Shown: piece after piece, positions 9,139 to 42,282 of the stretch
How the letters are laid out: each line of letters starts with the position of its first letter
Numbering within the stretch: the first letter of the stretch is position 1
Virus record (IMG/VR): IMGVR_UViG_3300028840_001835
Source: a virus
Lineage: Duplodnaviria; Caudoviricetes
Length of the DNA: 64,000 nt
Reading direction: 5' to 3' (one strand)
Program-made: the position numbers and the translations under genes
The notes under the pieces: model-generated
Databases searched by the model: none
What the model was told of the DNA's origin: nothing
The model's input: the letters and a program-made list of their open reading frames with translations, nothing else

Positions 9139-9173
9139 ATACTTTCCTCAATCTATAGTGTAATATTCTCTAA

Positions 9174-9181
9174 TATTTATA
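9174..9181 (-). promoter_or_regulatory. T4-type late promoter TATAAATA
   Basis: Exact match upstream of gp6. Confidence 0.8.
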
Positions 9182-27612: not shown

Positions 27613-28123
27613 TACATATACCTCCCTCGTCAGTTATCTTGAAATCCGCCTTGATTTCATTTAGAGAGTTTTTACTTTTAGCATCCTCAATGAGTTTTGC
27701 GACCTCTTTATTCGATAGAAAATTATTCACTGTCAAATTCTTTGGACCTCCCAGCGGTCCTGCTAATTTAAACTTTAGTTCAACTATGGTCTTGTCGAGC
27801 TCCCGAAGCTCTTTTATACTTGTGATTTTTACATTGGCGAGGGTAGCATACACCTCAAACATTCTTGGGGGAGAACCTAATTTTATATCATTTCCGAGCT
27901 TGGTGATCACATCATTAAGATTGGACACACAGTTCTTGATCTCCTTCTTCATATACTCGGCTTCTTCCAAAGTCATTCCTGACAAATCTTTGGACACAAG
28001 ACTTTCCTTTTTCTTTAGGACAGTCTTAACCTCCTCGACCTCTTCACCATCAAAGGTCGTCTCCAACATCTCGTTTATCTTTTCAAACGAGTCGTTAGTC
28101 TCTAATTTCTTCTTCCTCGGCAT
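27605..28123 (-). CDS. gp16: Terminase small subunit gp16
   Basis: PRMFEVYATL...IKELREL...NLTVNNFLSNKEVAKLI, matching the T4-like gp16 pattern; start refined to MPRKK. Confidence 0.75.
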   Translation of the reverse strand: MPRKKKLETNDSFEKINEMLETTFDGEEVEEVKTVLKKKESLVSKDLSGMTLEEAEYMKKEIKNCVSNLNDVITKLGNDIKLGSPPRMFEVYATLANVKITSIKELRELDKTIVELKFKLAGPLGGPKNLTVNNFLSNKEVAKLIEDAKSKNSLNEIKADFKITDEGGICNE

Positions 28124-28361
28124 ATATATCACCCACTATTGAATCTTCATCGAATTCAAGAAATTCTCTCGGTGGCCCTTCCACTTCATAGGGCTGGAAT
28201 GTCTCCACGTCCCTCTCGATGGTTATGCCAAAGAATGAAACCCTTGACGCCGATAGTATCAAAATACCTAAACATAACAATAAAAAGAACAGACCCCACC
28301 TGAGCAGCCTGAACCTAGCGAACAGACCCCAGACGGTTTGTATTTTTTGTTTCACTTCCAT
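28095..28361 (-). CDS. Small single-pass membrane protein
   Basis: Basic N-terminus, hydrophobic WGLFFLLLCLGILILSA, acidic tail; own late promoter. Confidence 0.6.
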   Translation of the reverse strand: MEVKQKIQTVWGLFARFRLLRWGLFFLLLCLGILILSASRVSFFGITIERDVETFQPYEVEGPPREFLEFDEDSIVGDIYAEEEEIRD

Positions 28362-28375
28362 AATGCTCTACCAAA

Positions 28376-28383
28376 TATTTATA
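28376..28383 (-). promoter_or_regulatory. T4-type late promoter TATAAATA
   Basis: Exact match; contains the gp15 stop. Confidence 0.8.
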
Positions 28384-29212
28384 TGAAGTCGATAAAATAA
28401 TCGAAATCCAGTAATGTTGCGCTCATTGTAAGGGTCTGGGTATTTCCAGATATATCGTAAGGAGCGGTAAATGTGGAGCTGGAATCCCATCCAGATGTAT
28501 TTGCTCCCCCGACCGCGGACAATCCTTGACCCATTGTTCCCGGATAGTATCTCGTTCTGATCTCTTTAATTAAACCATCGTCCGATAATTCTCTATATAA
28601 AAACGCCTTGACGTTGAGCTGAAGTACACCACGTACATATCTAATATTGTCCTCGTTTTGCTCAACAAGAAAATCTGGAGATATGCCTTCAAGAATGACT
28701 TTTATATCCCTCTCTATATTTAGAAATGAAAATTCCTTCACTCTTAAATATCGTGCTGGATCAAAGTAAGGAAGAATATTCTCCATTAGCTGTGTAAAAT
28801 GATTCATACTCTCGGTTCTTATCTCAAGTGAAAAACCGAGATCATATGGTCGTGGATTTAGATTCGATATAAACCTATCAATATCGTTCAATCCCAGAGC
28901 AGTGTTGTAAAACGTTCTTACCTCAGAAAGACCCGCCGCCCTATCTCCTGCGAAATTTATACTATCCCATGAGAGGGCCATCTTGGGCAAAGGCATATAC
29001 TTCTGTGCAGAGGGTTCTCCCCTCTTTATGATCTCATGATATTTATTCATATGACCAAACTGAAGGGACACTGGTATGGTCTTGACTTTTGTGGTCTCAA
29101 GGTAATCGCCCGTTTCAAAGTTTTCAACCACGAGTCCATTGAACTCATTTAACAAGGCGATAATTATTCCCCTTATGGTTCTTGGTCTAAAATTATCTGG
29201 TACTAATGCCAT
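28379..29212 (-). CDS. gp15: Tail terminator / sheath stabiliser gp15
   Basis: IPVSLQFG, LPKMAL, PRPYDLGFSLEI.T..M....QLMENILPYF.P. Confidence 0.88.
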   Translation of the reverse strand: MALVPDNFRPRTIRGIIIALLNEFNGLVVENFETGDYLETTKVKTIPVSLQFGHMNKYHEIIKRGEPSAQKYMPLPKMALSWDSINFAGDRAAGLSEVRTFYNTALGLNDIDRFISNLNPRPYDLGFSLEIRTESMNHFTQLMENILPYFDPARYLRVKEFSFLNIERDIKVILEGISPDFLVEQNEDNIRYVRGVLQLNVKAFLYRELSDDGLIKEIRTRYYPGTMGQGLSAVGGANTSGWDSSSTFTAPYDISGNTQTLTMSATLLDFDYFIDFI

Positions 29213-29398
29213 TTATCGTTTTGTCCTTACCACGTTTGATACATTATATTTTTTCTTTAATGCCTCAACATCGTTTGATGTATCTATTACATTACCATCT
29301 TTGTCCCAGACTCCATATCTTTTAATAGGTAGTCCTTTAGGAGGTTCTCCTATATCAGTAATGTAATATTTTTCAATTATAAAATCTTTCCAGTCCAT
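29213..29398 (-). CDS. Putative internal head protein
   Basis: Starts MDWKDFIIE|K. Confidence 0.6.
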   Translation of the reverse strand: MDWKDFIIEKYYITDIGEPPKGLPIKRYGVWDKDGNVIDTSNDVEALKKKYNVSNVVRTKR

Positions 29399-29409
29399 AA
29401 TTTAACTCC

Positions 29410-30207
29410 TTAATCAAACCATCCACCGAGGCCAGGCTGATTACTACTCTCCTCGCTTGAACCACTTGTATACAATACATCATCCTTCTTGTTGGTAATG
29501 TAATCACTCTGATCAAGATAGTCATCAACATCATTGACACCCGTTATCTCTGTCATAGCGGCGCTGGTGTCTGCCGATAGGCTAAGTTTCTGATCAAGCA
29601 TAGTTCTCACAGTGAAAGTCCATGAGTGTTTTCCCTGAAGGAACATCTCATCTTCCTCGCCAACATCAATTATCTCATAATATACACCATTAAACTCGCA
29701 ACGAATTATATCACCAACTTTAGGCGTTAATGCTCCATATACATTCCTTTGTGATTGTTGAGCAGGTGGATATAATGCGACACCACTTGTTGGATATTTA
29801 GAGGCCTCTGCAAAATGATTCTTACTAACATACATCGGAAAATTGTCCAATCCCTCAATACCAAATTTGGCGTATAGCTCCAGCTGCTTGGGTAATTCAA
29901 ACACTGCCTTTACAGGAAATCTTCTCTCTATTCTTCGAACATCGTCCTCACCAAAAAGGGGATCATAATTAACATCGTAGGTCACACGATAATACATCAT
30001 CGGATTGCCGTGAATGTTATTTGCCTCAGACAATAGAACATCATATAATCCACGATCCGCATCATATCTCTTATTCTGGAAAAACTGAAAATACTGATTA
30101 GGCATAGGATCTATAGTGGAGATCCTACTGGTCGTCCAGTTCGCTACAGTACCTTCTGAATCAGATTCTATAAAAGGTGATGTTGGTTGTCCAGATCCTG
30201 ATGGCAT
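29410..30207 (-). CDS. gp14: Neck protein gp14
   Basis: EANNIHG.PMMYY...DPLFGED...KFGIEGLD...PKVGDII.....YYEII.V...EMFLQGK. Confidence 0.88.
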   Translation of the reverse strand: MPSGSGQPTSPFIESDSEGTVANWTTSRISTIDPMPNQYFQFFQNKRYDADRGLYDVLLSEANNIHGNPMMYYRVTYDVNYDPLFGEDDVRRIERRFPVKAVFELPKQLELYAKFGIEGLDNFPMYVSKNHFAEASKYPTSGVALYPPAQQSQRNVYGALTPKVGDIIRCEFNGVYYEIIDVGEEDEMFLQGKHSWTFTVRTMLDQKLSLSADTSAAMTEITGVNDVDDYLDQSDYITNKKDDVLYTSGSSEESSNQPGLGGWFD

Positions 30208-30226
30208 ATTTACTCCTGTTTATTAG

Positions 30227-30234
30227 TATTTATA
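30227..30234 (-). promoter_or_regulatory. T4-type late promoter TATAAATA
   Basis: Exact match upstream of gp14; contains the upstream stop. Confidence 0.8.
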
Positions 30235-31345
30235 AGTTGATTTTTTTAGAGAATGTGGATGTTAGTCCACTTCTTTTAACCATGTAAGGTATCACCAACG
30301 TTATTGCATTCTCCTCTGTGAGTACATTCATCTCTATTTGATTCTCCAAAACTATGACACGTTTCTCCCATCTCTTTATAGCCCTAACAAGACGATCAAG
30401 AAGATCCACTGCATCCTGATACCCAATTTCCTCAAATGGAACTCTTGGAAGAATGGTTCCAAATTTAAGATTAAATACCCTCTCACCCCTTAATGTGGAC
30501 AGTATATTCTCAATACTCTGATTTATGGCATCCTGATTATATGCTTCTCCGACTGATATAACCTTCTTATGTATATCATACGCCCATTTGGGTTGTATCA
30601 CGTCCTCAGAAAGACCGAGTGTTAAAGAAATCTGTTCAACTTCTACATAACCTCCTATTCTAGGAAGCGGTAAATTTATATCTACGATCTCATTAAACTG
30701 TTTAACAATGGCTCCGATGTATGGGTTGGCAATAACTATGTTTGCGGAGCCGCTCTGTGATTTGCCCGCGGCTATAATAGTCGGGGTTGGAATATCAAAT
30801 AAAATAGTTCCAATCTTTGGACTTACAACCGTTCCAACACCAGATACACTTGGTGAAGGTGTCGTGGAAATGCCAACGGCACTTTGAACCTGTCCTTGTG
30901 TAACAATCTCGATTGAAGGAACATTCAGGTTAGAAATTCCTGTTGTAGGGGATACCGATGTACCAGTTCCAGAAACAAGAACCCCAAGAATTATATCAAG
31001 AACTGAAGAACCGATAGTCGGAAACGAACTATCCAGTTTTATGATCTGAGTATCGTCACCGGGATACGGTTCCATTGTATACGTACGGAACGGTATGGCA
31101 TCTTCATAGGTAACGGGTTCAGAGAGTAAAGCAAATTCATCGTCATTAAACTCAATAGCACCAGATACATCAAGAGTTTCATCTACGGCAAGAACGGTTC
31201 CGAGTAGCGGAACCTCTTCCTGACTAAATGTAAAATCTGCTGTATGGACTATGGTCTCATCATATACAACGGTACCAACAAGTGAAAATTCCTCTTCACT
31301 ATACTCTACAGTTGGAGTATATTCGATACCTACATCAAAACTCAT
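30230..31345 (-). CDS. Beta-repeat protein with C-terminal gp25 domain (copy A)
   Basis: AINQSIENILSTLRGERVFNLKFGTILP...AIKRWEKRV = GPW/gp25 signature. Confidence 0.8.
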   Translation of the reverse strand: MSFDVGIEYTPTVEYSEEEFSLVGTVVYDETIVHTADFTFSQEEVPLLGTVLAVDETLDVSGAIEFNDDEFALLSEPVTYEDAIPFRTYTMEPYPGDDTQIIKLDSSFPTIGSSVLDIILGVLVSGTGTSVSPTTGISNLNVPSIEIVTQGQVQSAVGISTTPSPSVSGVGTVVSPKIGTILFDIPTPTIIAAGKSQSGSANIVIANPYIGAIVKQFNEIVDINLPLPRIGGYVEVEQISLTLGLSEDVIQPKWAYDIHKKVISVGEAYNQDAINQSIENILSTLRGERVFNLKFGTILPRVPFEEIGYQDAVDLLDRLVRAIKRWEKRVIVLENQIEMNVLTEENAITLVIPYMVKRSGLTSTFSKKINL

Positions 31346-31350
31346 ATCTA

Positions 31351-32979
31351 TTAGACTTCGTTATAGTTTGGGACCATCATTCCAATTTGAGCATCATTGA
31401 CTATTATATCAATGGTTGTATATGTTGTTGGATGTTGGGTCGCATGAAAATAAACCCATTCTTTAGAAACGATAGTTTTTCCATTTAACATCTGTGACAT
31501 TGAACCCACCGCTGTGTAATAAAGATTCTTTGCCTGTCCATATGAACGATTGCCTTCGGCATTTGGCGAGGAATTAGAATCATATTCACCAACCACGGGC
31601 TTCATAACTATGTATTTACCCTCATCATTGGGAGCGGAGTCTTTTATTAACTGTTCCAACACATGACCGCCAATTCTTGAATAACAAAAATCATCAGTTG
31701 CATGTACACCAAATTCTTTTTGTCTAACACTTCTAACGGGAATACCCATTCTAACATAATTGTTTACTCCAGTCAATATATTTGTACCAAGTACATGAAA
31801 TCTTTGATAGTATGGGGAAAGTAACGACCCAGAACTATGTCTCTTGGTTAAAGTTTCATTCAATGATAATGTATCTCCAGCCGTAGCAGTCACCTGAAGA
31901 TAATCAATGGCTTCAGAACGATTAAGATTATATAAGAAATAAAAATTATCATCGGTAAAATTAGAACCCTCTCCTGTGTTCAAATATATCGTTGAGTCGC
32001 CGTCGTTGGCCGCTGCAGAAAGTGTACCACTTATTGTAGCCGCTTCGACAAGATTTAAGTCAGTCAACCATTCATCAAGAATATATGTAGACCACGCAGT
32101 TCCTACTCTAGTCTGAATTACAATACATTCATCGCCACCACGAAAATCATAAACAAATGCACCAGCATCAACAGTTCCAAGTGAATGAGCGCCAAACATT
32201 CCAAAACCAGTATGAATAGTTGTATCATAATTCATCCAAGTCTTAATATATATCTGTCCGGCAGTTCCAGTGACCATTCCAATCTCAACAAACTTTGCAC
32301 CAGAGTATGTTGTTGGATTCTGTTGATCGGATACAACTATATACGGGTCAACACTAATATCGTTCTTGATTCCAGCACCCGATTCCATATCAAGATAAGC
32401 AGCACCTCCTATGTATGTTCCACCCAATGATGGATTAGTCAAATACGATACATCCTTGTTTGCTGCTCCGGCAACTATGATAAATCTATCTTCTAATGTT
32501 TGTGAATTATAAAACGGATTGTTTACATATAGTTTTCTAAAATGCTTAACTATGGCTCCGTCAAAACCATCACCTGGGCTTGAGCTAACAGATTGTATAC
32601 CTGTCTGAATCACATCAGCAACCTCATCCCAGGTTGTTATTGAACTAAAATCAAGAGCCGATACACCCCGTGAGACTCCGCCAATACTTATCTGAAACTC
32701 CCCATCACTAACCGCACTTATTTCTGCCAACGTATCAAAACTTGTACCCAGACCATTATCATCTGTTTTCAACCATGCAACCTTATTTGGGGACGGATCT
32801 ACACTTGTATCGCTCTGATCGTCAATAATATACCAACCCGGACCGCCACTAACAGTTGCAGAGGGGCTCGCCACAGGCGTCCTTATGACCCAGTTCTTGA
32901 AATTGGCAAGAAGCCCATCGGCGTTTGTCGCTGAGAACCCTCTTCCTGTGCATGTGGACTGTTCAATGTTAAAAGCCAT
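31351..32979 (-). CDS. Virion structural protein of unknown function
   Basis: 542 aa, G/S/T-rich, in the fibre block behind late promoter 33004. Confidence 0.6.
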   Translation of the reverse strand: MAFNIEQSTCTGRGFSATNADGLLANFKNWVIRTPVASPSATVSGGPGWYIIDDQSDTSVDPSPNKVAWLKTDDNGLGTSFDTLAEISAVSDGEFQISIGGVSRGVSALDFSSITTWDEVADVIQTGIQSVSSSPGDGFDGAIVKHFRKLYVNNPFYNSQTLEDRFIIVAGAANKDVSYLTNPSLGGTYIGGAAYLDMESGAGIKNDISVDPYIVVSDQQNPTTYSGAKFVEIGMVTGTAGQIYIKTWMNYDTTIHTGFGMFGAHSLGTVDAGAFVYDFRGGDECIVIQTRVGTAWSTYILDEWLTDLNLVEAATISGTLSAAANDGDSTIYLNTGEGSNFTDDNFYFLYNLNRSEAIDYLQVTATAGDTLSLNETLTKRHSSGSLLSPYYQRFHVLGTNILTGVNNYVRMGIPVRSVRQKEFGVHATDDFCYSRIGGHVLEQLIKDSAPNDEGKYIVMKPVVGEYDSNSSPNAEGNRSYGQAKNLYYTAVGSMSQMLNGKTIVSKEWVYFHATQHPTTYTTIDIIVNDAQIGMMVPNYNEV

Positions 32980-33003
32980 ATCTATTCCCCTTATTATCGT
33001 TAA

Positions 33004-33011
33004 TATTTATA
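33004..33011 (-). promoter_or_regulatory. T4-type late promoter TATAAATA
   Basis: Exact match; contains the upstream stop. Confidence 0.8.
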
Positions 33012-35115
33012 AATTAATCTTCCTTGAGAAGGTAGAGGTCAAACCACTTCTCCTCACCACATACGGAATCTGGATAGTTAGTGCGTTCTCCTCGGTCAGT
33101 ACATTTAATTCGATTTGATTCTCCAAAACTATTATCCTTTTCTCCCATCTCCTTATTGCTCGTACTATAATATCCAATAGATCAACTGCATTCTGATAGT
33201 CCAAAACCTCAAAAGGCACGATTGGAAGTATTGTTCCAAATCTTGGATTGAATATTCGTTCACCTCTTAATGTCGCAATTATATTCTCTATACTTTGATT
33301 AATTGCATCGTCATTATATGCCTTTCCAACAGATACCGCTTTCTTATGTATATCTATTGCCCATTTTGGCTGTTTGATCTCCTCGGGGGTTGGATCGACA
33401 GGAAGAGTAAATTTCTCAATCTCTCCATGAATGTTAATTCTAAGCCAAGGCATATATATGGACATATCATGATTAAACTGCTTGACAATAGCATCAATGT
33501 ATGTAGCTGGAATGTATATATCTGCTGATATACTATTGATAGTTCCAACACTAATAACACCCAGGCCCGGTAAAAGTAAATCAGACACGCCACTGGTCAA
33601 TGTTCCAGTTATCTGTGTGTAAGGATTTGGAATATTCACATCAATCGCCTGACCAGAAACGACCAGTTGACCACTGGCTTCGATATATGGGACCGTTACA
33701 TCAATATTCATGGTTCCTGTATTAACAATTCCCTGAATAGTCGTTACAACAAATCCCGTGTCTATATCTATCGCACCATTATTGACACTCCCTTGAATTG
33801 TCGTTACAACGAACCCAGCATCAATTATTGATGATCCGGCTGTTACGACTGTTCCAGAGATTGATGTATATGGAACTATTGTATCAATATCTATAATTCC
33901 CGTGTTAATAATTCCCTGAATGGTCGTAGTGACAAAACCAGTATCAATTGTTGATATGCCAGCAGTTGTAATTGTTCCAGAGATTGATGTATATGGAACT
34001 GTTGTATCAATATTCAATTGACCAGAGTTTATAGTGCCGCTAAGTTCTGTAACCGGAGATGAAACGATCAAATCTCCACTTCCAGTTGGTAAGTTACTAA
34101 TTGGTTCTGCGTCCCATTGTATGAACTGCTCCTCATTAAACATGGCAGAATACAATGCACTTGTACTATGTCCCGATACATGAGTCCAATCCCAAAAACG
34201 AAATTCATCAATAGTGCCATCAAAAAAGTTCTCAAAATCAGGAGATATCCAAGTTGCACCAATCGTGTGATTTCTTGTTGTGTTAATGCCCGTTTCTCCA
34301 GCGACCGTCTCTAACTGCTCCTCGACACCATTCACATATAAAATTAAATCTCCTTCAGTCTGAAAAGATATCAATACATGATACTCAGTATCCGTGGAGA
34401 ATACATAATCAAACTCATGATAATTTGAACCCAAATCAAATTCTAACTTGGCATTTTCTGTTATACCTATATTAATTCTTTTACCGCCACCGTCCGGATC
34501 ATCACTTGAAAATATTGAATAAAACTCTGTTCCGCCGGGTATGGAATGTAATTTCATTATAAATTCAATTGAAAACTCCGTCATGTCATTTTCGCCACCG
34601 AAGTCATTAATATCATCAATATACGCATCAGAATCAATATCGAAATCGAATGCGGAATTTAAATGACCAGATGTTTCTGTAACATTGACTAATGTACCAA
34701 AGAAGGGATCAACGTCAATGTCTGAACTATTGATTGCTTCTCCAGCACTTGTTCCGCCATGATATACAATTGAATTATTTGCCCAAAGATCATCTACAGC
34801 CTCTGCAGTTGCGGACGAATTACCATACCAGAAATAATACTCATTATCTTCTCCCGGCCACCACTGATCAGAAGCGAACCAAATCTCTGCGCTTGCTGAG
34901 GATTCAAATCTAACTATCTCTATTGATTGCTGTCCGCTACCATCAGCCCCAGAAGTGATTCGGATGTCACCACCATCTGACCTAGCGTTGGCAAATACAT
35001 GCTGGGGAAGTGTTCTATGGGTTAACACAAAGGGAGCATCCGACCACTCTCCACCGAAGAAGGCACCCGAAGTCGTAAACTTAAACTTATAATTCCATCC
35101 GTCAGGAAACGCCAT
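33007..35115 (-). CDS. DUF2341 + LamG/concanavalin-like + beta repeats + C-terminal gp25 domain (copy B)
   Basis: ARSDGGDIRIT...EIWF (DUF2341); FSIEF...YHVL...LYVNG...FDGTIDEFRFW (LamG); SIENII.TLRGERIFNPRFG (gp25). Confidence 0.8.
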   Translation of the reverse strand: MAFPDGWNYKFKFTTSGAFFGGEWSDAPFVLTHRTLPQHVFANARSDGGDIRITSGADGSGQQSIEIVRFESSASAEIWFASDQWWPGEDNEYYFWYGNSSATAEAVDDLWANNSIVYHGGTSAGEAINSSDIDVDPFFGTLVNVTETSGHLNSAFDFDIDSDAYIDDINDFGGENDMTEFSIEFIMKLHSIPGGTEFYSIFSSDDPDGGGKRINIGITENAKLEFDLGSNYHEFDYVFSTDTEYHVLISFQTEGDLILYVNGVEEQLETVAGETGINTTRNHTIGATWISPDFENFFDGTIDEFRFWDWTHVSGHSTSALYSAMFNEEQFIQWDAEPISNLPTGSGDLIVSSPVTELSGTINSGQLNIDTTVPYTSISGTITTAGISTIDTGFVTTTIQGIINTGIIDIDTIVPYTSISGTVVTAGSSIIDAGFVVTTIQGSVNNGAIDIDTGFVVTTIQGIVNTGTMNIDVTVPYIEASGQLVVSGQAIDVNIPNPYTQITGTLTSGVSDLLLPGLGVISVGTINSISADIYIPATYIDAIVKQFNHDMSIYMPWLRINIHGEIEKFTLPVDPTPEEIKQPKWAIDIHKKAVSVGKAYNDDAINQSIENIIATLRGERIFNPRFGTILPIVPFEVLDYQNAVDLLDIIVRAIRRWEKRIIVLENQIELNVLTEENALTIQIPYVVRRSGLTSTFSRKINL

Positions 35116-35124
35116 TCAATACCC

Positions 35125-38100
35125 CTATAAAATTATCTTCCTAGAGAACGTACCTGTCAGACCACTCCTGTTTATGATGTATGGTATCTGGATTGTCATT
35201 GCGTTCTCTTCCGTCAATATGTTCATCTCGATCTGGTCCTCAATGACCGTTATTCGTGTCTCCCAGAACTGTATGGCCTTGAGCAGATCGACAAGCAGTG
35301 CCTCGGCGTCAGCATAATCCAGTTGTGAGAAAATGGTGAGTGGTAACACAGATCCAAAGAACGGTGAAAATACTCTCTCACCTCTAAGCGTGGAAAGTAT
35401 ATTCTCAATGCTATTATTTATAGCTTTCTCATTAAGAACATAACCTGTTGTTAAAACGTCCTTTGATATATCCTCTGCCCATATCTGTGTATTCTCCCTC
35501 TCGGCGGGTATCACTATGGTCGTTATATTTCTCTCAAGTAGACCATCAATGTCAGTAGTTGGTTTTGGTATTTCAATGTCAATCGCACCTTGTATAGGAA
35601 CAGCACCCACTCCACTTACAATCGTAAAAGGTATTATTAAATCACCTGTTATACGATTAACAACGCCCGAGCCGGAACAACTAACAAATGGAATTATTAG
35701 ACTACCAGTTACACGATTGACTGTTCCTTGTATGTCAACCTCTGGAACTGGTGTCTGGACATCAAGAGAATCACCAGAAACAACAAGCTGACCAGTACCT
35801 TCAACATCAACCGCTGGTATGTCCACATCAATAGAATCCCCAGAAACCACTCTCTGACCAGTTCCATCAATTTCCGGAACTGGTATTGATATGTCCGCTT
35901 GACCAGTATTATTTGACGCAGATATGTCTAGAATTATCGAAGGAATTGCCACATCGAGGGCACCACCAGATACTACTAATTGACCGCTTGCTGTTATGTA
36001 TGGGATCGGTATATCGACATCAATGACACCACCATTAACAACACCTTCAGCATCGACAATCACAAAACCGGCGTCAATTACGATCTCGCCATCATTAATA
36101 AGTCCATTTGAAACAATATATGGGATAGGAACATCAATGTTTAGAATTCCTTTATTTACGATCCCTTGAACATCGACTGATACAAATCCTGTATCTATCG
36201 TGATCGTTCCTGTTGTTTCTATTAGACCCGTACCAGATGTAACAACAAATCCGGTGTCTATATCTATAGTTCCACCCGTTGCTGCTTCACCAACACCACC
36301 AATCTCTGGAATTGGTATATCTATATCTATGTTACCCTGATTAACAATACCCTGGGAGGATATTACAACAAAACCCGTATCTATGTCAATTAAACCAGTA
36401 TTTGATACACCACTTGCAGTGATGTATGGGACAGGCGTATCAATGTTTAATATTCCTTTATTAACAACGCCTTCTGCGTCAACAATAACCCAACCGGCAT
36501 CTATGACTATCTGACCATCATTGACAAGTCCCTGGGCGATAACATCGACCGCGGGTATCACAAGATCAGTTAAACCAACCGTCGAGATTGTTCCCGTTCC
36601 AGATACATCAACAAACCCAGTATCTATATCTATCGAACCCTGTGTTTCTGCCGTGCCTGTAGCAGACAGATACGGGACAGGAATAGTTATGTTTATGTTA
36701 CCCTGATTTAAAACACCCTGAGAAACTATATATGGAACTGGCACATCTATGTCAATCGTTCCACGATTAACAACGCCAGATACATCGACATCGACCGCTG
36801 GAATTACTATGTCAAGGGCTGTTCCAGAAACCACCAATTGACCGGTCGCCTGAACCTCAACCGCCGGGATCACAACATCAAGAACGTCAGCAGAAACAAC
36901 TAATTGCCCAACAGCGTCTATGTATGGAATCGGTACATCAATATTCAGGGTTCCTTTATTCACAGTTCCTACTGCGTCAACAACGACCCATCCAGCAACT
37001 ATGACTACCTCGCCATCATTGACGAGACCCTGGGCATCAACCGATACAAACCCAGTATCTATATCTATCGAACCCTGCTTCTCAGTCGACCCAGTCGCTG
37101 AGAGATAAGGGACAGGGATATCTATGTTTATGTTACCCTGATTTACAACTCCAGTAAGATTAGAATCGACCGCTGGAATTACTATGTCAAGGGCTGTTCC
37201 AGAAACCACTAGCTGCCCAGAGGCAACAATGTATGGGACTGGTATATCTATTGTTACATCGCCACTATTCACAACCCCAGTAACATCAACATCAACTGCA
37301 GGGAGTATAACATCCAATGATGTAGCAGATACAACAAGTTGACCCACCAATGACGCCTGAATAGCAGGAATAACAACATCAAGGGATAACGCAGAAACGA
37401 CCAATTGACCAGAGGCTTCGATATATGGAACAGGAATATCAATGTCCAAGGTTCCCTTGTTCACAACTCCTTCGCCATCAACAACCACAAACCCGGCGTC
37501 AATTACTATCTCGCCATCGTTGACAAGACCATTAATATCCACATAAGGAACAGGAATATCTATCGCTATTGTACCCGCGGTCTCTATTAAACCAGTCGCA
37601 GACGTATATGGAACCGGTACATCAATGTTTAGTGTTCCTTGATTTACAACACCGCTTGCTACAACATACGGAACGGGTACGTCTATGTCAATCGTTCCAA
37701 CAGATTCAATAATACCCGTTGCTGATAGATACGGAACTGGAGTATCTATGTCTATGTTACCTTGATTTACAATTCCCTCACCATCGACAACCACAAATCC
37801 AGCATCGATCACTATCTCGCCATCATTGACAAGCCCGCTTATATCTACATATGGAACGGGGATATCAATATTCAGAGTGCCTTTATTGACAACTCCAGAT
37901 ACATCAACATCAATTGCTGGAATTACAACATCAAGGGAAGTTGCAGATACAACAAAATTCCCAACAGCATCTACATACGGAATAGGAACATCTATTACAA
38001 TCGTTCCCTGAACTTCTACCTGTCCCTGACCGCTAGTGTATGGAACCGTTGTATTAATATCGAGGGAGGTCGCAGATACGACAAGCTGACCAGCTGCATC

Positions 38101-38478
38101 GACATACGGAACAGGTGTATCAATATTCAACGTACCAGTGTTGACGATGCCTGCTGCATCGACAACCACAAACCCGGCATCGATCACTATCTCGCCATCA
38201 TTGACGAGCCCGCTTGCAGTGATGTACGGGACGGGTATATTGATATCCAACGCCCCAGATGTCAACGGCGTCGCGGCGCTGATAACAAGGTCTTTATTAA
38301 AACTTAGACTTCCAGACTCACCTGGGGTTGGTAATGTTAGGTTGACGGTCTTTGAGGAAGACTCATAAAGGGTTATCGTTCCGCCATTAAGTGATAACGC
38401 TGAAGTGGATACATAACTTAGATCATTGCTTGCCTCTCCAGCACTTATAGTATATTTAAACCATAGTTTCTTAAACAT
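35125..38478 (-). CDS. Long ~21-aa beta-repeat fibre with C-terminal gp25 domain (copy C)
   Basis: Dozens of G.L.ID.PVPY..A.G.V repeats; AINNSIENILSTLRGERVFSPFFG (gp25). Confidence 0.8.
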   Translation of the reverse strand: MFKKLWFKYTISAGEASNDLSYVSTSALSLNGGTITLYESSSKTVNLTLPTPGESGSLSFNKDLVISAATPLTSGALDINIPVPYITASGLVNDGEIVIDAGFVVVDAAGIVNTGTLNIDTPVPYVDAAGQLVVSATSLDINTTVPYTSGQGQVEVQGTIVIDVPIPYVDAVGNFVVSATSLDVVIPAIDVDVSGVVNKGTLNIDIPVPYVDISGLVNDGEIVIDAGFVVVDGEGIVNQGNIDIDTPVPYLSATGIIESVGTIDIDVPVPYVVASGVVNQGTLNIDVPVPYTSATGLIETAGTIAIDIPVPYVDINGLVNDGEIVIDAGFVVVDGEGVVNKGTLDIDIPVPYIEASGQLVVSALSLDVVIPAIQASLVGQLVVSATSLDVILPAVDVDVTGVVNSGDVTIDIPVPYIVASGQLVVSGTALDIVIPAVDSNLTGVVNQGNINIDIPVPYLSATGSTEKQGSIDIDTGFVSVDAQGLVNDGEVVIVAGWVVVDAVGTVNKGTLNIDVPIPYIDAVGQLVVSADVLDVVIPAVEVQATGQLVVSGTALDIVIPAVDVDVSGVVNRGTIDIDVPVPYIVSQGVLNQGNINITIPVPYLSATGTAETQGSIDIDTGFVDVSGTGTISTVGLTDLVIPAVDVIAQGLVNDGQIVIDAGWVIVDAEGVVNKGILNIDTPVPYITASGVSNTGLIDIDTGFVVISSQGIVNQGNIDIDIPIPEIGGVGEAATGGTIDIDTGFVVTSGTGLIETTGTITIDTGFVSVDVQGIVNKGILNIDVPIPYIVSNGLINDGEIVIDAGFVIVDAEGVVNGGVIDVDIPIPYITASGQLVVSGGALDVAIPSIILDISASNNTGQADISIPVPEIDGTGQRVVSGDSIDVDIPAVDVEGTGQLVVSGDSLDVQTPVPEVDIQGTVNRVTGSLIIPFVSCSGSGVVNRITGDLIIPFTIVSGVGAVPIQGAIDIEIPKPTTDIDGLLERNITTIVIPAERENTQIWAEDISKDVLTTGYVLNEKAINNSIENILSTLRGERVFSPFFGSVLPLTIFSQLDYADAEALLVDLLKAIQFWETRITVIEDQIEMNILTEENAMTIQIPYIINRSGLTGTFSRKIIL

Positions 38479-38481
38479 TAA

Positions 38482-40530
38482 TTACTCCACCAAAGGCGGT
38501 TTGGTCTTATATGGATGACCACTGGGTAAATTGTCCACAAGACCCCACTTCCATGCTAGGTACCCTTCAACTTTTTGTATTGTTGCGGTCGATACATCTG
38601 GCACTATTAAAAACTCACCAAATGCGCCATTTGGGTGTCTTATTCCCCCTCTGTTTCTAAATGCCCCAAATGTCTGTGATGTATCTAATGTATCATCATA
38701 TAAAACATCTGGTGTTCTTTTTATTCCATCTATGTTGACATAATATACCTGACTTGTGAAATCCATCACTACAGAAAATGTGGACGGGCCATTAAATGGC
38801 CCACCAGATAACACAACATCATCACCAATATTAGATTGGTTTATTTCTCCATCAAAATCTACTGTGCTGTCCGATGCAAACTGTAAATCGTTTGTAGCAT
38901 CTACACAAAACACCGAATCGTTTGCATTGGCAAGAGAATCAATTACATATATACCAAAGAATGTCATGTTACCATCAGAAGGTAATGTCACATTCCCTTC
39001 TAAGTGTCCATCACCATCACAATCAAATACATTCAAATCATTAATTTCTCTAACCCCTGTATCTGGTCTATCCCCTTCCGTGGCCTGAATCAAAGAATTG
39101 CCCATCCCGCTCTTATCTGCCCAACTACTAACACCACCGGCCGCCGTTGTTATTGTACTTTCATCGGTTGTGTCCCACCATCCCGATGTTACTATTTCTG
39201 ATGGTGTCCAGTTGGCTACATAATCAACTTTTCTCCCACCTACCTTAACATCAAGATCGAGCTGTGGTGTACCCGTCGCAGAGACCTGATCACTAAACTC
39301 GACACAGAGATAAAGGGTCTGACCGGCGATATAAGTTCCGTCATCATCTGGACTGGTCACGTTGACAACAGGGACCTCGACTGAACCCGAGATTGTGGTT
39401 GAGACCGCAGGTAATGTTAATGCTCCAGACCCTTCTGGAGTAACGGGCCCGACCGCCTGCGATGGACCAGCACTTATAAAATTCTGAGGTGTTGCCCATG
39501 CATCATAATATGTCTGTAACCAATTATCACCTTTTGTATCATCAATGATCAGGATCTCATCAAGTTTTATGTTTGCATAATCGGTGAAATTATCCCTAGC
39601 AATACGGCAGGCCTCCTGAAGCCTTAGGGGATAAGAGGTATCCCATGTAACAGTTCCAACAGATGCACCATTTACATACAGTTCTGTTTGATCTATGGTA
39701 CTATTATACCTCATCGCTATGTGATATTCTGTACCGCTGTTGAATGTTTGTGTTTCTATATATTCATTTCCGCCTTCCCCATCATCATTATCAACAACCA
39801 ATATACCTATTTCATCATACTCACTATCTATGAAAAGACTAAAATCACCAGTATCAGTATCGCCAACCGAAGCAAAGATTGGCATATATAAACTAATATC
39901 ATTTGGCTCAACCCAACATGAAAACACAACAACCGCCTCCGATGTATTTGATAGCCCGTTTGTTGCAAAATTAAAATAATCTCCTGAACCATCTAAATTT
40001 TGTCTTACCCTTGATATATTTCCTGTTGCAGTTGTCGCCAAGCTACCATATGAATTTGCATCCGCGCTATTTGGCGATTGATCCGTAAAGGTCGGAGTCG
40101 ACCCAGTTTTATCCATTGGTGACGCATAGAAACAAATACTATATACCCCCTCAGAACCCCCAGAGGTTTCTCTGGAAGGTTGAGAGTCCGTACCAGTGGT
40201 GTTCCACCATATCCAGATCGTTTGATTCGAACCAGTGGTATCAATCTCCGCTGCTATCTCAGCATATGCGGTAGCTGAAGTGCCATCTGAAAAATAATCT
40301 CTTATATGAATGGGAACTAAATTAACACCAGCGGAATCTGTTGTTACGCGGATATCCCCACCATCGGACTGTGCCGATGTACTTGTGGTAAACATATCCG
40401 CTGGAAGATTACTCGTAGCTGGATTACCATCCCACTTTAATTTAAAAATAAGCTCAGCGGGAGTACCCGTGACCTCTGACCCTTGAATCTGTAAAGGAGC
40501 TTTTCTTGTATGTGTAAGACCGCCTGCCAT
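38482..40530 (-). CDS. DUF2341 + LamG + Ig-like + LamG adhesin-like virion protein
   Basis: AQSDGGDIRVT; YHIAMRY...LYVNG; DGTY.AG...VEFSD.V..TGTPQL; WTP...WWD..D..TI...VSSWADKSG. Confidence 0.75.
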   Translation of the reverse strand: MAGGLTHTRKAPLQIQGSEVTGTPAELIFKLKWDGNPATSNLPADMFTTSTSAQSDGGDIRVTTDSAGVNLVPIHIRDYFSDGTSATAYAEIAAEIDTTGSNQTIWIWWNTTGTDSQPSRETSGGSEGVYSICFYASPMDKTGSTPTFTDQSPNSADANSYGSLATTATGNISRVRQNLDGSGDYFNFATNGLSNTSEAVVVFSCWVEPNDISLYMPIFASVGDTDTGDFSLFIDSEYDEIGILVVDNDDGEGGNEYIETQTFNSGTEYHIAMRYNSTIDQTELYVNGASVGTVTWDTSYPLRLQEACRIARDNFTDYANIKLDEILIIDDTKGDNWLQTYYDAWATPQNFISAGPSQAVGPVTPEGSGALTLPAVSTTISGSVEVPVVNVTSPDDDGTYIAGQTLYLCVEFSDQVSATGTPQLDLDVKVGGRKVDYVANWTPSEIVTSGWWDTTDESTITTAAGGVSSWADKSGMGNSLIQATEGDRPDTGVREINDLNVFDCDGDGHLEGNVTLPSDGNMTFFGIYVIDSLANANDSVFCVDATNDLQFASDSTVDFDGEINQSNIGDDVVLSGGPFNGPSTFSVVMDFTSQVYYVNIDGIKRTPDVLYDDTLDTSQTFGAFRNRGGIRHPNGAFGEFLIVPDVSTATIQKVEGYLAWKWGLVDNLPSGHPYKTKPPLVE

Positions 40531-40533
40531 AAA

Positions 40534-40782
40534 TTATTTTGTCCTATATTTTGGAGCTCCGAGTTTTCTACGAATCTCATTTAGCCCACGTTCAGAAAAA
40601 TAAGCAACCCGCATACATTCTAAGAGTGATAATTCATCAACGAATTTTAACTCTGTTGGAAGGGGTTCTTCTTTTGTGTATCCATCAATAGTATCAACAA
40701 TTGTTTGCTCCGTAACTGTGATTGGTTTTATGTCAGTCGCACTTGTTTTTGTGTCAGTCGCACTTGTCTTTAATTCAGGCAT
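40534..40782 (-). CDS. Hypothetical protein with N-terminal TSATD tandem repeat
   Basis: 82 aa, first gene after late promoter 40818. Confidence 0.65.
   Translation of the reverse strand: MPELKTSATDTKTSATDIKPITVTEQTIVDTIDGYTKEEPLPTELKFVDELSLLECMRVAYFSERGLNEIRRKLGAPKYRTK
40731..40767. repeat. 16-bp direct repeat, 21-bp period
   Basis: tgtcagtcgcacttgt at 40731-40746 and 40752-40767. Confidence 0.85.
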
Positions 40783-40817
40783 TAATAATAATTCTCCTTT
40801 TCAATATGCTATATGAA

Positions 40818-40825
40818 TATTTATA
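40818..40825 (-). promoter_or_regulatory. T4-type late promoter TATAAATA
   Basis: Exact match upstream of the adhesin block. Confidence 0.8.
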
Positions 40826-41526: not shown

Positions 41527-42282
41527 TTACTCGATGAAAAATATCGGTTCTTCAGATTCCCCGGATATTCTTTCCATCAACCTCTCTTTGTCCTCACGAC
41601 CCTCTGCCAGAATTTCCGACCAATTGATCGTTCCTCCAGACGGTAAAGTCATATTATACTTTCTGAGATTCTGGCCCCATTGTATCTTTGCCTCTGCCAC
41701 GGATAGGGCTTTCACCATCTCATTATTATATAAATTCTCCGCGGTTTCTCTCGAAAAACACTCCACGAGTAATATACCTGTCGCGGTAGGTGTCGGAGTG
41801 ATTAGTATCTCCCGTCTAGCACTGGAATACTGCGCGTGATAGACACGATTGAAGAAATCTTTAATATCCTCTAGGTATTGAATTGCGACCTCATACCCTG
41901 CGAGAGCCATCCCAGAATCAAGATAAGCTCCGCCCGCTGGACCGCCCGGATATCCGCCATGTATCACCCAATCCTCATAGAGTAATGAGTGCGTAGATGA
42001 GAAAAGGACATTTATTCCATTTTCTCCAAAAGTAAGCGATGTATCTATTGTGGCCTCTATATTACGATCCGCAACATCATAGGCAGAGACTCCATTTGTT
42101 ATTGAGAGTCCAAAATAATTCCTATAATTTCCCTCCCCCGTATGATGAGTTTGGAAATATTGAACAGAATCCTCTATAGCCTGATCAAGCTGTCCTTGAG
42201 AAAGTTCAATTTGAATAACAGGCGATCCCAATTTGGTGAGAACGTATGTCTCCATACCTGCGAGTGTGGTTATTCTAGCCAT
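41527..42282 (-). CDS. gp13: Neck protein gp13
   Basis: LTKLGSPVIQIELS..QLDQAIED...AEAKIQWGQNLRKY..TLPSGGTINW. Confidence 0.92.
   Translation of the reverse strand: MARITTLAGMETYVLTKLGSPVIQIELSQGQLDQAIEDSVQYFQTHHTGEGNYRNYFGLSITNGVSAYDVADRNIEATIDTSLTFGENGINVLFSSTHSLLYEDWVIHGGYPGGPAGGAYLDSGMALAGYEVAIQYLEDIKDFFNRVYHAQYSSARREILITPTPTATGILLVECFSRETAENLYNNEMVKALSVAEAKIQWGQNLRKYNMTLPSGGTINWSEILAEGREDKERLMERISGESEEPIFFIE

What the first reader, a model, noticed from the sequence alone, without database searches (positions are those of the whole stretch)
30230..38478. Three giant adhesin-like proteins each tipped with a gp25 sheath-initiator domain, inserted between neck genes 13 and 14
Seen: the last ~120 aa of the 371-, 702- and 1117-aa proteins (about 30230-30592, 33007-33369, 35125-35487) are paralogous gp25 domains (SIENI..TLRGER.F...FG...AI..WE.R). 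Their N-termini differ: beta repeats, DUF2341+LamG, or ~900 aa of repeats. No stand-alone gp25 gene is in the window. Known: gp25 is a single ~130-aa baseplate protein that mimics the sheath inner domain and nucleates sheath assembly; T4 genes 13 and 14 are adjacent. Inference: gp25 has been repurposed as a plug-in anchor that displays different lectin/adhesin arms from the sheath lattice, either as a heteromeric ring at the baseplate or capping the neck end. This would be an appendage-display system I do not recognise from described phages.
Basis: partly seen in the sequence, partly recalled or inferred. Interest (0 to 1): 0.85.

Follow-up and report, generated by a model that had tools for sequence, protein, structure and literature searches.

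The report
Sheath-starter protein fused to adhesin arms
In an uncultured 202-kb T4-like phage, the small baseplate protein that starts tail-sheath assembly (gp25) exists only as three tandem genes, each fused behind a different long lectin-, fibre- or adaptor-like arm. This points to an undescribed way of hanging host-binding appendages on the innermost part of a contractile tail.

Summary
The 371-, 702- and 1117-aa proteins each end in a complete gp25/GPW sheath-initiator domain (Pfam 37-42 bits against a cut-off of 27.2). The folded domain matches solved initiators at Z 11-14. The genes lie between gp13 and gp14 of a complete, terminally repeated T4-like genome.

Four further results:
- The genome has no other gp25, even with a lineage-specific profile.
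- At least 15 more distant relatives carry a free 127-131-aa gp25 directly upstream of gp6. Here, and in a close relative (66.5-kb contig), that slot is empty and gp25 occurs only as fusions at the gp13/gp14 junction.
- One to three such fusions (161-1799 aa, mostly LamG/DUF2341 arms) sit at this junction in seven or more independent assemblies, so they are not artefacts.
- The N-terminal domain of the 371-aa protein matches a small protein that follows homologues of the neighbouring 542-aa fibre-like gene in unrelated phages, so it is probably that protein's adaptor.

Best reading (about 0.7): these fusions are the phage's working sheath initiators, sited in the baseplate with their arms displayed outward. 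The neck-cap idea is not supported. Virion presence and stoichiometry are untested. This scan has noted single gp25 fusions on other DNA. I class it as a new variant of a known kind.

The parts
30233..30598 (-). gp25 (sheath-initiator) domain of P0001, residues ~250-371
   Evidence: PF04965 42 bits, residues 271-358. Lineage HMM 162 bits, ORF positions 254-375 counted from the preceding stop codon, i.e. about residues 249-370. 78% identical to the P0002 domain over the last 122 residues, dN/dS about 0.06.
30599..31030 (-). Ser/Thr/Gly/Val-rich spacer of P0001 with a few beta repeats, residues ~106-249
   Evidence: Composition and motifs. Its C-terminal part aligns with the pre-gp25 segment of P0002.
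31031..31345 (-). N-terminal domain of P0001: three ~27-aa repeats plus a PGDD[ST]Q motif. Probable adaptor for the 542-aa fibre-like protein.
   Evidence: Collinear homology (E 2e-10 and 1e-7) to free-standing 148-aa proteins encoded directly after P0004 homologues in P22-portal-type phage contigs L012 and L035. The ortholog P0019 keeps the domain, and its gene follows a P0004 homologue in L011.
31351..32979 (-). P0004, a 542-aa fibre/tailspike-like structural protein inside the array
   Evidence: PF11863 (DUF3383 / E217_gp31_N) 37 bits on residues 81-205 only. AF2 model pLDDT 82, pTM 0.87. Foldseek matches: JBD30 baseplate chains, N-terminal anchor domains of podoviral tailspikes, and the protruding domain of the E217 sheath. 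44-46% identical homologues lie after the portal-capsid block of P22-portal-type phages.
33010..33378 (-). gp25 domain of P0002, residues ~580-702
   Evidence: PF04965 41.8 bits. AF2 pLDDT 92-98. VIA-align Z 14.3 (rmsd 2.1 A, 106 residues) to 2ia7, 11.6 to TssE 6gj1_D, 11.4 to Pvc9 9qgl and to pyocin PA0617 6u5b.
33379..34095 (-). Beta-repeat spacer of P0002, about ten 20-aa repeats, residues ~341-579
   Evidence: Repeat motifs. Modelled as short strands at low confidence (pLDDT ~50). Weak resemblance to beta-solenoids, Z about 7, not above background.
34096..35115 (-). Lectin-like arm of P0002: DUF2341-like start plus LamG (concanavalin A-like) domain
   Evidence: Laminin_G_3 51.2 bits, residues 178-309. 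The same arm type occurs in 7 of 10 related fusions. Residues 1-110 are modelled at pLDDT 65-91.
35128..35496 (-). gp25 domain of P0003, residues ~995-1117
   Evidence: PF04965 37.3 bits. Lineage HMM 154 bits. In the tree it groups with the first-in-array genes of other contigs.
35497..38478 (-). Arm of P0003: a short N-terminal segment also found in P0016, then about 46 diverged 20-aa repeats (consensus G-x-V-N-x-G-x-L-x-I-D-I-P-V-P-Y-I-x-A-x)
   Evidence: No high-identity DNA repeat, so it is not an assembly artefact.
38482..40530 (-). 682-aa structural protein whose N-terminal half resembles the LamG-type arms but which has a different C-terminal anchor
   Evidence: PHROG 10356 'virion structural protein', E 5e-21, on residues 425-681. 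23-31% identity to the arms of P0002 and of the L005 fusions.
41527..42282 (-). gp13-like neck protein (upstream flank)
   Evidence: PHROG 211 head-tail adaptor Ad2, E 3.6e-23. Its 62%-identical homologue in L009 carries PF26809 Phage_T4_gp13.
29410..30207 (-). gp14-like neck protein (downstream flank)
   Evidence: PHROG 679 head closure Hc2, E 9e-11. Pfam T4_neck-protein 23.6 bits, just under the cut-off of 25.
9139..9181 (-). Empty canonical gp25 slot: 43 bp between the 282-aa gene (9182-10030) and gp6 (6718-9138)
   Evidence: Fifteen or more related contigs have a 127-131-aa gp25 exactly here. The close relative G005 also has an empty slot of 37 bp. The gap holds a TATAAATA motif at 9174-9181.
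33004..33011 (-). T4-type late-promoter motif TATAAATA overlapping the stop codon of P0002, ahead of P0004. Further copies at 30227-30234 (stop of P0001, ahead of gp14) and 40818-40825 (head of the operon).
   Evidence: 28 matches in the window, 27 of them on the minus strand, against 5.5 expected; 0 of 100 shuffles reach 28.

Best explanation
The three genes encode this phage's only sheath initiators.

In an ancestor of this sub-lineage of T4-like phages, the small gp25 gene left its usual place directly upstream of gp6. It came to lie at the junction of the head module and the neck/tail module, gained N-terminal arms, and duplicated.

Proposed mechanism (inferred). Each C-terminal gp25 domain takes one of the six gp25 positions of the inner baseplate. 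There it docks on the helical bundle of the gp6/gp7-type wedge and accepts the terminal strands of the first sheath discs, as gp25, gpW and TssE do. The polypeptide leaves the inner baseplate at the domain's N-terminus through a flexible segment and a beta-repeat spacer. It carries the arm to the outside.

The three arms:
- P0002: a LamG lectin-like head, probably glycan binding.
- P0003: a fibre of about 900 residues made of 20-aa repeats.
- P0001: a three-repeat adaptor that probably holds the neighbouring 542-aa fibre/tailspike-like protein P0004.

The arms would then act as baseplate-anchored host-adhesion or receptor-binding appendages.

Shown: domain identity and fold, conservation of family positions, absence of any other gp25, the empty canonical slot, recurrence of the locus in relatives, and the late-promoter context. 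Inferred: the position in the virion, outward display, binding function, the P0001-P0004 pairing, and how the three paralogs share the six sites.
For: 1. Domain identity. PF04965 is above its cut-off in all three and PHROG wedge families match. The gp25 part of the P0002 model has pLDDT 92-98 and matches solved initiators at Z 14.3-8.2: 2ia7, TssE, Pvc9, PA0617, Afp9, and phages Pam3, A-1(L), XM1 and P1.

2. Function retained. All 13 nearly invariant family columns are kept in all three. These include the Glu and Arg of the W-E-x-R motif, which aligns with 'WEPR' of 9gtp_V. Non-synonymous divergence is 0.13 against saturated synonymous divergence of 0.73 between P0001 and P0002.

3. No alternative gp25. 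A six-frame PF04965 search of the complete genome finds only these three, plus a sub-threshold 11-bit hit inside gp13. A lineage HMM run with filters off finds nothing else below E 0.35.

4. Replacement, not addition. A stand-alone 127-131-aa gp25, 32-49% identical to the fused domains, lies directly upstream of gp6 in L014-L019, L037-L039 and L042-L047. The complete 158-kb relative G001 has exactly one such gene. In the window, 43 bp separate the 282-aa gene from gp6. The close relative G005 (gp6 55%, gp14 57% identical) has the same empty slot, and its only two PF04965 hits lie in 1331- and 994-aa fusions between gp13 and gp14.

5. Real and conserved. Fusions at the same junction occur in L005 (three: 1318, 512 and 885 aa), L008 (two or more), L009 (a single one of 1799 aa between gp13 and gp14), L010, L011, L006 and L050, from different samples. 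The fusion clade has 98/95 support in the domain tree.

6. Structural-gene context. The genes lie in a late operon framed by TATAAATA motifs.

7. Outward display is feasible. In the solved PlPVC1 baseplate, the longer gp25 homologue Pvc9 has an extra region that protrudes and is exposed toward the outside of the particle (bioRxiv 10.1101/2025.04.20.649488; 9qgl_9A is 239 aa with the gp25 part at 125-222).

8. Adaptor reading. The gene pair [P0004 homologue][148-152-aa gene] is kept in three P22-portal-type contigs, with start and stop overlapping. P0001 residues 1-105 align along their whole length with two of those small proteins.
Against: - Nothing shows that the proteins are in virions, or that the arms stay attached.
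- T4 gp25 is, from my own knowledge, a deeply placed inner-baseplate protein. Arms of 250-1000 residues on all six copies could be sterically demanding.
- Three paralogs for six equivalent sites leave the stoichiometry open.
- Some relatives pair a long form with a short one of 126-180 aa (L006, L010). A mixed ring containing a short 'plain' gp25 may therefore be the normal state, and this phage has no short form.
- The Pro of the classical E-P-R motif is Lys (P0001, P0002) or Thr (P0003).
- The spacer and LamG parts of the P0002 model are of low confidence, so arm geometry is unknown.
- The P0001-P0004 pairing rests on gene neighbourhood alone.
Confidence: 0.7

Rival explanations
1. Alternative cassettes. 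All three can fill the gp25 site, but each baseplate or each virion uses them interchangeably or in random mixtures. Alternatively, only one paralog class is the obligatory initiator and the others are optional. The array would then be a host-range or bet-hedging device and not an ordered hetero-ring.
For: The copy number varies from one (L009) to three (window, L005) among relatives. P0001 and P0002 are recent duplicates (100/99 support, 78% identity). The arms are shuffled among paralogs: LamG arms occur on all three L005 genes.
Against: In the domain tree, P0003 groups with the first-in-array genes of L005, L010 and L006, and P0001/P0002 group with last-in-array genes and with the single L009 gene (supports 80-90%). 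This hints at two old, non-redundant classes. All three domains are under strong constraint.
Confidence: 0.15
2. A free gp25 is still made. Proteolytic cleavage or internal translation initiation would release a ~125-aa gp25 from one or more fusions. In that case the inner baseplate is conventional, and the arms are separate proteins or are discarded.
For: Short forms of 126-180 aa exist in the arrays of some relatives (L006, L010, P0008, P0014). P0002 has two Met codons about 25-30 residues before its domain. The segment before the domain is predicted to be flexible.
Against: P0001 and P0003 have no Met near the domain start. No protease or autoprocessing domain was detected in any of the three. 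The arm-spacer-gp25 order is kept over large sequence divergence and in a single-copy relative of 1799 aa, which argues that the linkage itself is selected.
Confidence: 0.08
3. The gp25 domains dock somewhere other than the baseplate, for example on the neck-proximal end of the sheath or along it, and form whisker-like decorations.
For: The genes lie between the neck genes gp13 and gp14.
Against: The genome would then have no sheath initiator at all, and the canonical slot is empty. Sheath initiators accept the N- and C-terminal strands of the first sheath discs (PMC13433997). From my own knowledge of sheath 'handshake' structures, such free strands exist only at the baseplate end. Gene position is a weak guide here, because this is a junction of two modules: in G001 the best gp14-like match lies far from gp13, and the short gp13-gp15 interval holds no gp25.
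Confidence: 0.04
4. Assembly artefact or decaying pseudogenes.
For: None found.
Against: The ORFs are uninterrupted in a complete, terminally repeated genome. Orthologous fusions occur in seven or more independent assemblies. The domains are under strong purifying selection. The repeats are diverged at the DNA level.
Confidence: 0.01

Closest known systems
T4 gp25 / P2 gpW / T6SS TssE sheath initiators (Pfam PF04965)
   Same: Same domain by sequence and fold. Conserved family positions, including the Glu and Arg of the W-E-x-R motif. Presumably the same docking on the wedge bundle and the same handshake with the first sheath discs.
   Different: The known proteins are single-domain, about 100-150 aa, single-copy, and encoded next to the gp6/Baseplate_J gene. 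Here the domain is the C-terminal tenth to third of 371-1117-aa proteins, present in three tandem paralogs, and encoded between gp13 and gp14. The canonical gene is absent.
Pvc9 of the Photorhabdus luminescens PlPVC1 contractile injection system (PDB 9qgl; bioRxiv 10.1101/2025.04.20.649488)
   Same: A gp25 homologue that is longer than usual (239 aa, gp25 part at 125-222). Its extra region protrudes above the wedge proteins and is exposed to the outside, and its authors suggest carbohydrate contacts. This is a solved precedent for display from gp25.
   Different: The extension is only about 120 residues, in one copy, in an eCIS and not a phage. No lectin, fibre or adaptor modules are involved.
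Tail sheath initiator of Staphylococcus phage 812 (PDB 9euf; PMC13433997)
   Same: A two-domain initiator (LysM plus handshake domain, 212 aa) in a phage baseplate. It shows that an N-terminal domain ahead of the handshake fold is tolerated.
   Different: The added domain is small and belongs to the baseplate core. It is not an external arm. One gene only.
Earlier notes of this scan on other DNA: gpW fused to about 1000 aa of adhesin-like repeats in a P2/HP1-type phage (e1-3290149), and PDZ-TssE (e1-1223797)
   Same: N-terminal additions to the same anchor domain. The first is also adhesin-like and of similar size (AI notes, not checked here).
   Different: Those are single genes. The gpW fusion was reported there as rare among about 155 related loci that keep gpW separate. 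Here the fusion state defines a sub-lineage, is multiplied up to three-fold, and goes with relocation and loss of the canonical gene.
Podoviral tailspike or fibre with its N-terminal particle-binding domain (for example LKA1 gp49, phi297 gp61), as a comparison for P0004
   Same: Foldseek aligns an ~85-residue part of the P0004 model with the N-terminal anchor domains of these tailspikes (probability 1.0, rmsd ~3 A). P0004 homologues lie after the portal-capsid block in P22-portal-type phages.
   Different: The global TM-scores are low (0.11-0.27). P0004 has no beta-helix catalytic body. It carries an inserted domain like the protruding domain of the E217 sheath protein (PF11863, partial match).

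Membership tests
GPW_gp25 sheath initiator (PF04965; T4 gp25, P2 gpW, TssE) | Sequence match to the family profile above the curated cut-off, over nearly the whole profile | tested here: met
   42.0, 41.8 and 37.3 bits against 27.2; profile positions 4-93 of 96. Six-frame search gives 45, 46 and 43 bits.
GPW_gp25 sheath initiator (PF04965; T4 gp25, P2 gpW, TssE) | The alpha/beta 'handshake' fold of solved initiators | tested here: met
   P0002 residues 580-702 are modelled at pLDDT 92-98. Z 14.3 to 2ia7, 11.6 to TssE 6gj1_D, 11.4 to 9qgl Pvc9 and 6u5b PA0617, 11.2 to Afp9 6rao_H. P0001 and P0003 were not folded, but their domains are 78% and 57% identical to the P0002 domain.
GPW_gp25 sheath initiator (PF04965; T4 gp25, P2 gpW, TssE) | Conserved Glu-Pro-Arg motif, thought to contact the wedge helical bundle (the role of the motif is recalled from the T4 and T6SS literature and was not re-read here) | tested here: inconclusive
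   Glu and Arg are invariant in all three (RWEKR, RWEKR, FWETR) and align with 'WEPR' of 9gtp_V. The Pro is replaced by Lys or Thr.
GPW_gp25 sheath initiator (PF04965; T4 gp25, P2 gpW, TssE) | Small single-domain protein of about 100-150 aa | tested here: not met
   371, 702 and 1117 aa, with the domain at the extreme C-terminus. Of the 150 best library matches, about 130 are under 170 aa.
GPW_gp25 sheath initiator (PF04965; T4 gp25, P2 gpW, TssE) | Gene adjacent to the gp6/Baseplate_J wedge gene | tested here: not met
   The genes lie about 21-26 kb from gp6, between gp13 and gp14. The slot upstream of gp6 is 43 bp of non-coding DNA, whereas 15 or more relatives have gp25 there.
GPW_gp25 sheath initiator (PF04965; T4 gp25, P2 gpW, TssE) | Six copies in the inner baseplate, bound to the wedge and to the first sheath disc | not testable with these tools
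   This needs virion proteomics or cryo-EM. It is inferred from the lack of any other gp25 in a complete genome that encodes sheath, tube, hub, gp6 and a gp53-like protein.
T4-like myophage structural module (gp13, gp14, gp15, gp17, gp18, gp19, gp23) | Presence of the hallmark genes flanking the array | tested here: met
   Gp23 273 bits; T4-gp15_tss 114 bits; PHROG Ad2 (gp13), Hc2 (gp14), large terminase, sheath, tube and portal. The capsid protein is only 32-36% identical to cultured Kyanoviridae and other T4-like phages.
Concanavalin A-like lectin (Laminin_G_3, PF13385): arm of P0002 | Profile match above the cut-off | tested here: met
   51.2 bits against 27.6, residues 178-309. The fold was not confirmed: this part of the model has pLDDT below 50.
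Tail sheath protein, DUF3383 / E217_gp31_N (PF11863): considered for P0004 | Full-length match including the sheath core and handshake strands | tested here: not met
   Only profile positions 98-195 of 493 match (residues 81-205). Foldseek aligns only 125-133 residues with the E217 sheath. The phage's real sheath gene is at 21186-22961.

The most novel reading that the evidence does not exclude
The arms may be more than passive decorations. They are covalently joined to the very protein that passes the baseplate's conformational change on to the sheath. Receptor binding by the arms could therefore pull directly on the sheath initiator and trigger contraction, bypassing the usual relay of fibre, peripheral baseplate and wedge. 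The two old paralog classes (P0003-type and P0001/P0002-type) could alternate around the ring, giving an ordered hetero-hexamer with three-fold symmetry.
Probability: 0.2. Interest if true: 0.85.

Novelty: new variant of a known kind. Interest (0 to 1): 0.64.

Why it matters
gp25/gpW/TssE is among the most conserved parts of contractile injection machines. It is normally a small, single-domain, single-copy protein.

This lineage has dispensed with the free protein. It makes the domain only as the C-terminal anchor of long, modular, multiplied arms. That would show the inner baseplate can serve as an attachment point for host-recognition modules, and would add a new solution to the question of how fibres are mounted on contractile tails.

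It also bears on annotation. A 'missing' gp25 in metagenomic T4-like genomes may be hidden at the end of large 'adhesins'.

It suggests an engineering handle. If the N-terminus of gp25 tolerates cargo of up to about 1700 residues, it could serve as a display site on phage tails, tailocins or eCIS.

The shared two-gene module (P0004 plus its small partner) links the fibre repertoires of T4-like and P22-portal-type phages.

Tried and rejected
- Megablast of 28000-42000 and tblastn of P0002 against 50,697 phage records found no match. Cultured phages match only the bare gp25 domain, at about 30-39% identity.
- A pattern scan of IMG/VR with full-length P0001 found no relative.
- A word-based homologue search with P0002 gave only 3 other proteins.
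- Complex prediction of P0004 with P0001 residues 1-130 gave no verdict (score 0.00, partner pLDDT 24-27). It counts neither for nor against binding.
- P0004 against PDB sequences gave no match.
- The AF2 model of P0002 is uninformative for the LamG and repeat parts (pLDDT 30-57). The beta-solenoid look-alikes at Z about 7 are within background for this aligner.
- Candidates for a cryptic free gp25 were examined and dropped:
  - The 11-bit PF04965 hit inside gp13.
  - ORF 57577-57948: lineage HMM E 0.35, no PHROG family.
  - The 138-aa and 172-aa ORFs of the baseplate block: no Pfam or PHROG family, nothing in the Atlas above chance.
  - The 109-aa gp53-like protein. It co-occurs with a separate gp25 in relatives, so it is not a substitute.
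- The TATAAATA at 35415-35422, inside the P0003 gp25 domain, is explained by the codons of the conserved 'A-I-N-N' motif. I did not treat it as an internal promoter.
- Literature searches for described gp25 fusions found only the short extensions cited above.

Full report
**What is there.** The window is the reverse strand of positions 84165-148164 of a 202,503-bp IMG/VR virus record with direct terminal repeats, rated 100% complete. On the minus strand it carries a T4-like late region. In order of transcription:
- portal, prohead protease, gp22 scaffold, gp23 capsid protein (Pfam Gp23, 274 bits)
- gp13-like adaptor (41527-42282)
- a 131-aa structural protein, an 82-aa ORF and a 682-aa structural protein
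- P0003 (1117 aa), P0002 (702 aa), P0004 (542 aa), P0001 (371 aa)
- gp14-like head-closure protein (29410-30207), gp15, small and large terminase, sheath, tube
- a gp26/51-like hub protein, tape measure, a gp53-like 109-aa protein, a gp5-like protein
- an inserted ATPase and a peptidoglycan-binding protein
- a 282-aa protein, gp6, and further baseplate or fibre genes.

No cultured phage is close. The capsid protein is at most 36% identical to any of 50,697 phage records, and the region has no nucleotide match.

**Check of the observation.** P0001, P0002 and P0003 each end in a near full-length GPW_gp25 domain (42.0, 41.8 and 37.3 bits; cut-off 27.2). PHROG baseplate-wedge families confirm this, as does a profile built from the 148 best library matches (154-162 bits). 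Over the last ~122 residues the domains are 78% (P0001/P0002) and 57% (either against P0003) identical. The 13 columns that are nearly invariant across 62 family members are all kept in the three paralogs. These include the Glu and Arg of the W-E-x-R motif, which aligns with WEPR in the solved protein 9gtp_V.

In an AlphaFold2 model of P0002, the gp25 part has pLDDT 92-98. It superposes on solved sheath initiators at Z 14.3 (2ia7; rmsd 2.1 A over 106 residues), 11.6 (TssE), 11.4 (Pvc9 and pyocin PA0617), 11.2 (Afp9) and 8-10 for several phage baseplates. Between P0001 and P0002 the synonymous sites are saturated (0.73) while non-synonymous divergence is 0.13. Both copies are therefore under strong constraint.

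The N-terminal parts differ:
- P0001 has three ~27-aa repeats, a PGDD[ST]Q motif and a Ser/Thr/Gly/Val-rich spacer.
- P0002 has a DUF2341-like start, a LamG domain (51 bits) and about ten 20-aa beta repeats.
- P0003 has about 46 diverged 20-aa repeats.

The repeats are not repeated at the DNA level.

**Is there a free gp25?** No. A six-frame search of the complete genome with PF04965 finds the three fusions and one sub-threshold hit (11 bits) inside gp13. The lineage profile, run with all filters off on every ORF of 40 aa or more, finds nothing else below E 0.35. Small ORFs of the baseplate block have no family match.

**The decisive comparison.** More distant relatives share the baseplate block. 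In them a stand-alone gp25 of 127-131 aa lies between the homologue of the 282-aa gene and gp6, immediately upstream of gp6. This holds for six IMG/VR contigs (L014-L019) and nine metagenome contigs (L037-L039, L042-L047). These free proteins are 32-49% identical to the fused domains. The complete 158-kb relative G001 has exactly one gp25, at that position.

In the window, the 282-aa gene ends 43 bp before gp6. That gap holds only a late-promoter motif.

A close relative was found as a 66.5-kb contig, G005 (gp6 55%, gp14 57%, terminase 61% identical). It covers both regions and shows the same state. The 272-aa gene abuts gp6 with 37 bp between. The only two PF04965 matches in the contig lie at the ends of 1331-aa and 994-aa proteins between gp13 and gp14. 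The fused genes have therefore replaced the canonical gene in this sub-lineage. A contractile tail with sheath, tube, hub and gp6 needs an initiator, so the fusions must supply it.

**Recurrence.** The 1.84-billion-protein library gives 825 matches to the domain. Among the 20 closest (46-58% identity), 12 are N-terminally extended (161-1799 aa) with the domain at the extreme C-terminus. Further away almost all are 120-150 aa. Their contigs show the same junction:
- L005: gp13, the 131-aa homologue, three fusions (1318, 512 and 885 aa), gp14.
- L009: gp13, then a single 1799-aa fusion, gp14, gp15.
- L008 and L051: two fusions before gp14.
- L010: a 166-aa and a 610-aa form before gp14.
- L011: a P0004 homologue followed by the P0001 ortholog.
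- L006: a long form followed by a 126-aa form.

These come from different samples and assemblers, which rules out a chimeric assembly. Seven of ten fusions carry LamG arms, often doubled and with DUF2341. Others carry unrelated N-terminal domains.

A maximum-likelihood tree of the domains places all junction genes in one clade (98/95 support). Free gp25 proteins of relatives lie outside it. P0001 and P0002 are recent duplicates (100/99). P0003 groups, with moderate support (80-90%), with the first-in-array genes of L005, L010 and L006. P0001/P0002 group with last-in-array genes and with the single L009 gene. This hints at two old classes.

**The fourth gene.** P0004 is not a sheath paralog. 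The PF11863 match covers only an inserted domain (residues 81-205). The real sheath gene is elsewhere. The P0004 model (pLDDT 82) resembles baseplate proteins of phage JBD30 and the N-terminal anchor domains of podoviral tailspikes.

Its closest homologues (44-46% identical) lie after the portal-capsid block of P22-portal-type phages. In three such contigs the next gene overlaps the stop codon and encodes a 148-152-aa protein. Two of these small proteins align along their whole length with residues 1-105 of P0001 (E 2e-10 and 1e-7). P0001 therefore looks like that small partner protein fused, through a spacer, to gp25. I infer that it ties P0004 to the baseplate. Its three repeats might suit a trimeric partner, but this is speculation. 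A complex prediction gave no verdict.

**How it most likely works.** The gp25 domain takes the usual inner-baseplate position and keeps the two usual contacts, with the wedge helical bundle and with the terminal strands of the first sheath discs. These contacts are described for phage 812 (PMC13433997) and phiKZ (PMC13250141). The chain leaves at the domain's N-terminus and carries a beta-repeat spacer and an arm.

That an N-terminal addition can reach the outside is shown by the solved PlPVC1 baseplate. Its longer gp25 homologue Pvc9 protrudes above the wedge proteins and is exposed outward. The arms are lectin-like, fibre-like or fibre-recruiting, so host-surface adhesion or receptor binding is the likely role.

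The genes are late genes. TATAAATA occurs 27 times on the coding strand of the window against 5.5 expected. Copies sit at the head of the operon (40818) and, overlapping the stop codons of P0002 and P0001, ahead of P0004 and gp14.

It would leave the phage without an initiator. The free sheath strands that a gp25 fold accepts exist only at the baseplate end (this last point is from my own knowledge of sheath structures). The position between gp13 and gp14 is a seam between the head module and the neck/tail module. In the complete relative G001 the short interval between gp13 and the gp15 gene holds no gp25, and the best gp14-like match lies far away.

**What remains open.**
- Whether the proteins are in virions and uncleaved.
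- How three paralogs share six sites: ordered, random or alternative.
- Whether the arms bind glycans.
- Whether P0001 binds P0004.

Some relatives combine a long and a short form, so a plain gp25 may be needed in some baseplates. This phage has none.

**Novelty.** N-terminal additions to gp25 homologues are known at small scale: PlPVC1 Pvc9, about 120 residues, and the phage 812 LysM-handshake initiator. Earlier notes of this scan record a single gpW-adhesin fusion in a P2/HP1-type phage and a PDZ-TssE fusion on other DNA (not checked here). My literature searches found no description of a lineage in which the free gp25 is lost and replaced by one to three tandem, relocated fusions carrying arms of 250 to 1700 residues. 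I class it as a new variant of a known kind. It should interest phage structural biologists and is useful for annotation.

Noticed in passing
window 31351-32979 and 31031-31345; L012:10001-12054; L035:8001-10072: A two-gene module is shared between this T4-like phage and P22-portal-type phages. It consists of a 536-543-aa fibre-like protein followed by an overlapping 148-152-aa gene. Here the small partner is fused to gp25.
   Followed up: partly
window, whole (28 sites; e.g. 40818, 33004, 30227, 28376, 9174): The T4 late-promoter motif TATAAATA occurs 27 times on the minus strand against 5.5 expected. At the ends of P0001 and P0002, the last Leu codon and the stop codon (TTA TAA) form part of the motif for the next gene.
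   Followed up: partly
window 38482-40530: A 682-aa protein carries a DUF2341/LamG-like N-terminal half (23-31% identical to the arms of the gp25 fusions) on a different C-terminal anchor (PHROG 10356 'virion structural protein'). The same kind of arm is thus mounted on two different anchors in one operon.
   Followed up: partly
window 10563-13403: An ATPase-like 291-aa protein, a 138-aa ORF and a 501-aa protein with a PG_binding_1 domain and a weak Peptidase_M15 match lie between gp5 and the 282-aa/gp6 genes. Most relatives lack these genes at that place.
   Followed up: no
L033:11651-13243 (G001): In the complete 158-kb relative, the gp15 tail-sheath-stabiliser domain is the C-terminal part (residues 291-503) of a 530-aa protein. 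This is another case of a small conserved tail or neck domain carrying an N-terminal extension.
   Followed up: no
window 15543-15872: A 109-aa protein matches small 'baseplate wedge subunit' PHROGs (E 1e-11) and weakly matches Pfam Phage_gp53. It is conserved next to the 446-aa gene in all relatives and is probably the gp53 equivalent.
   Followed up: partly
window 41527-42282: The gp13-like gene follows gp23 directly, so the head and neck/tail modules are joined differently from T4 and from the Kyanoviridae phage C48C1, where gp13 and gp14 are adjacent.
   Followed up: partly
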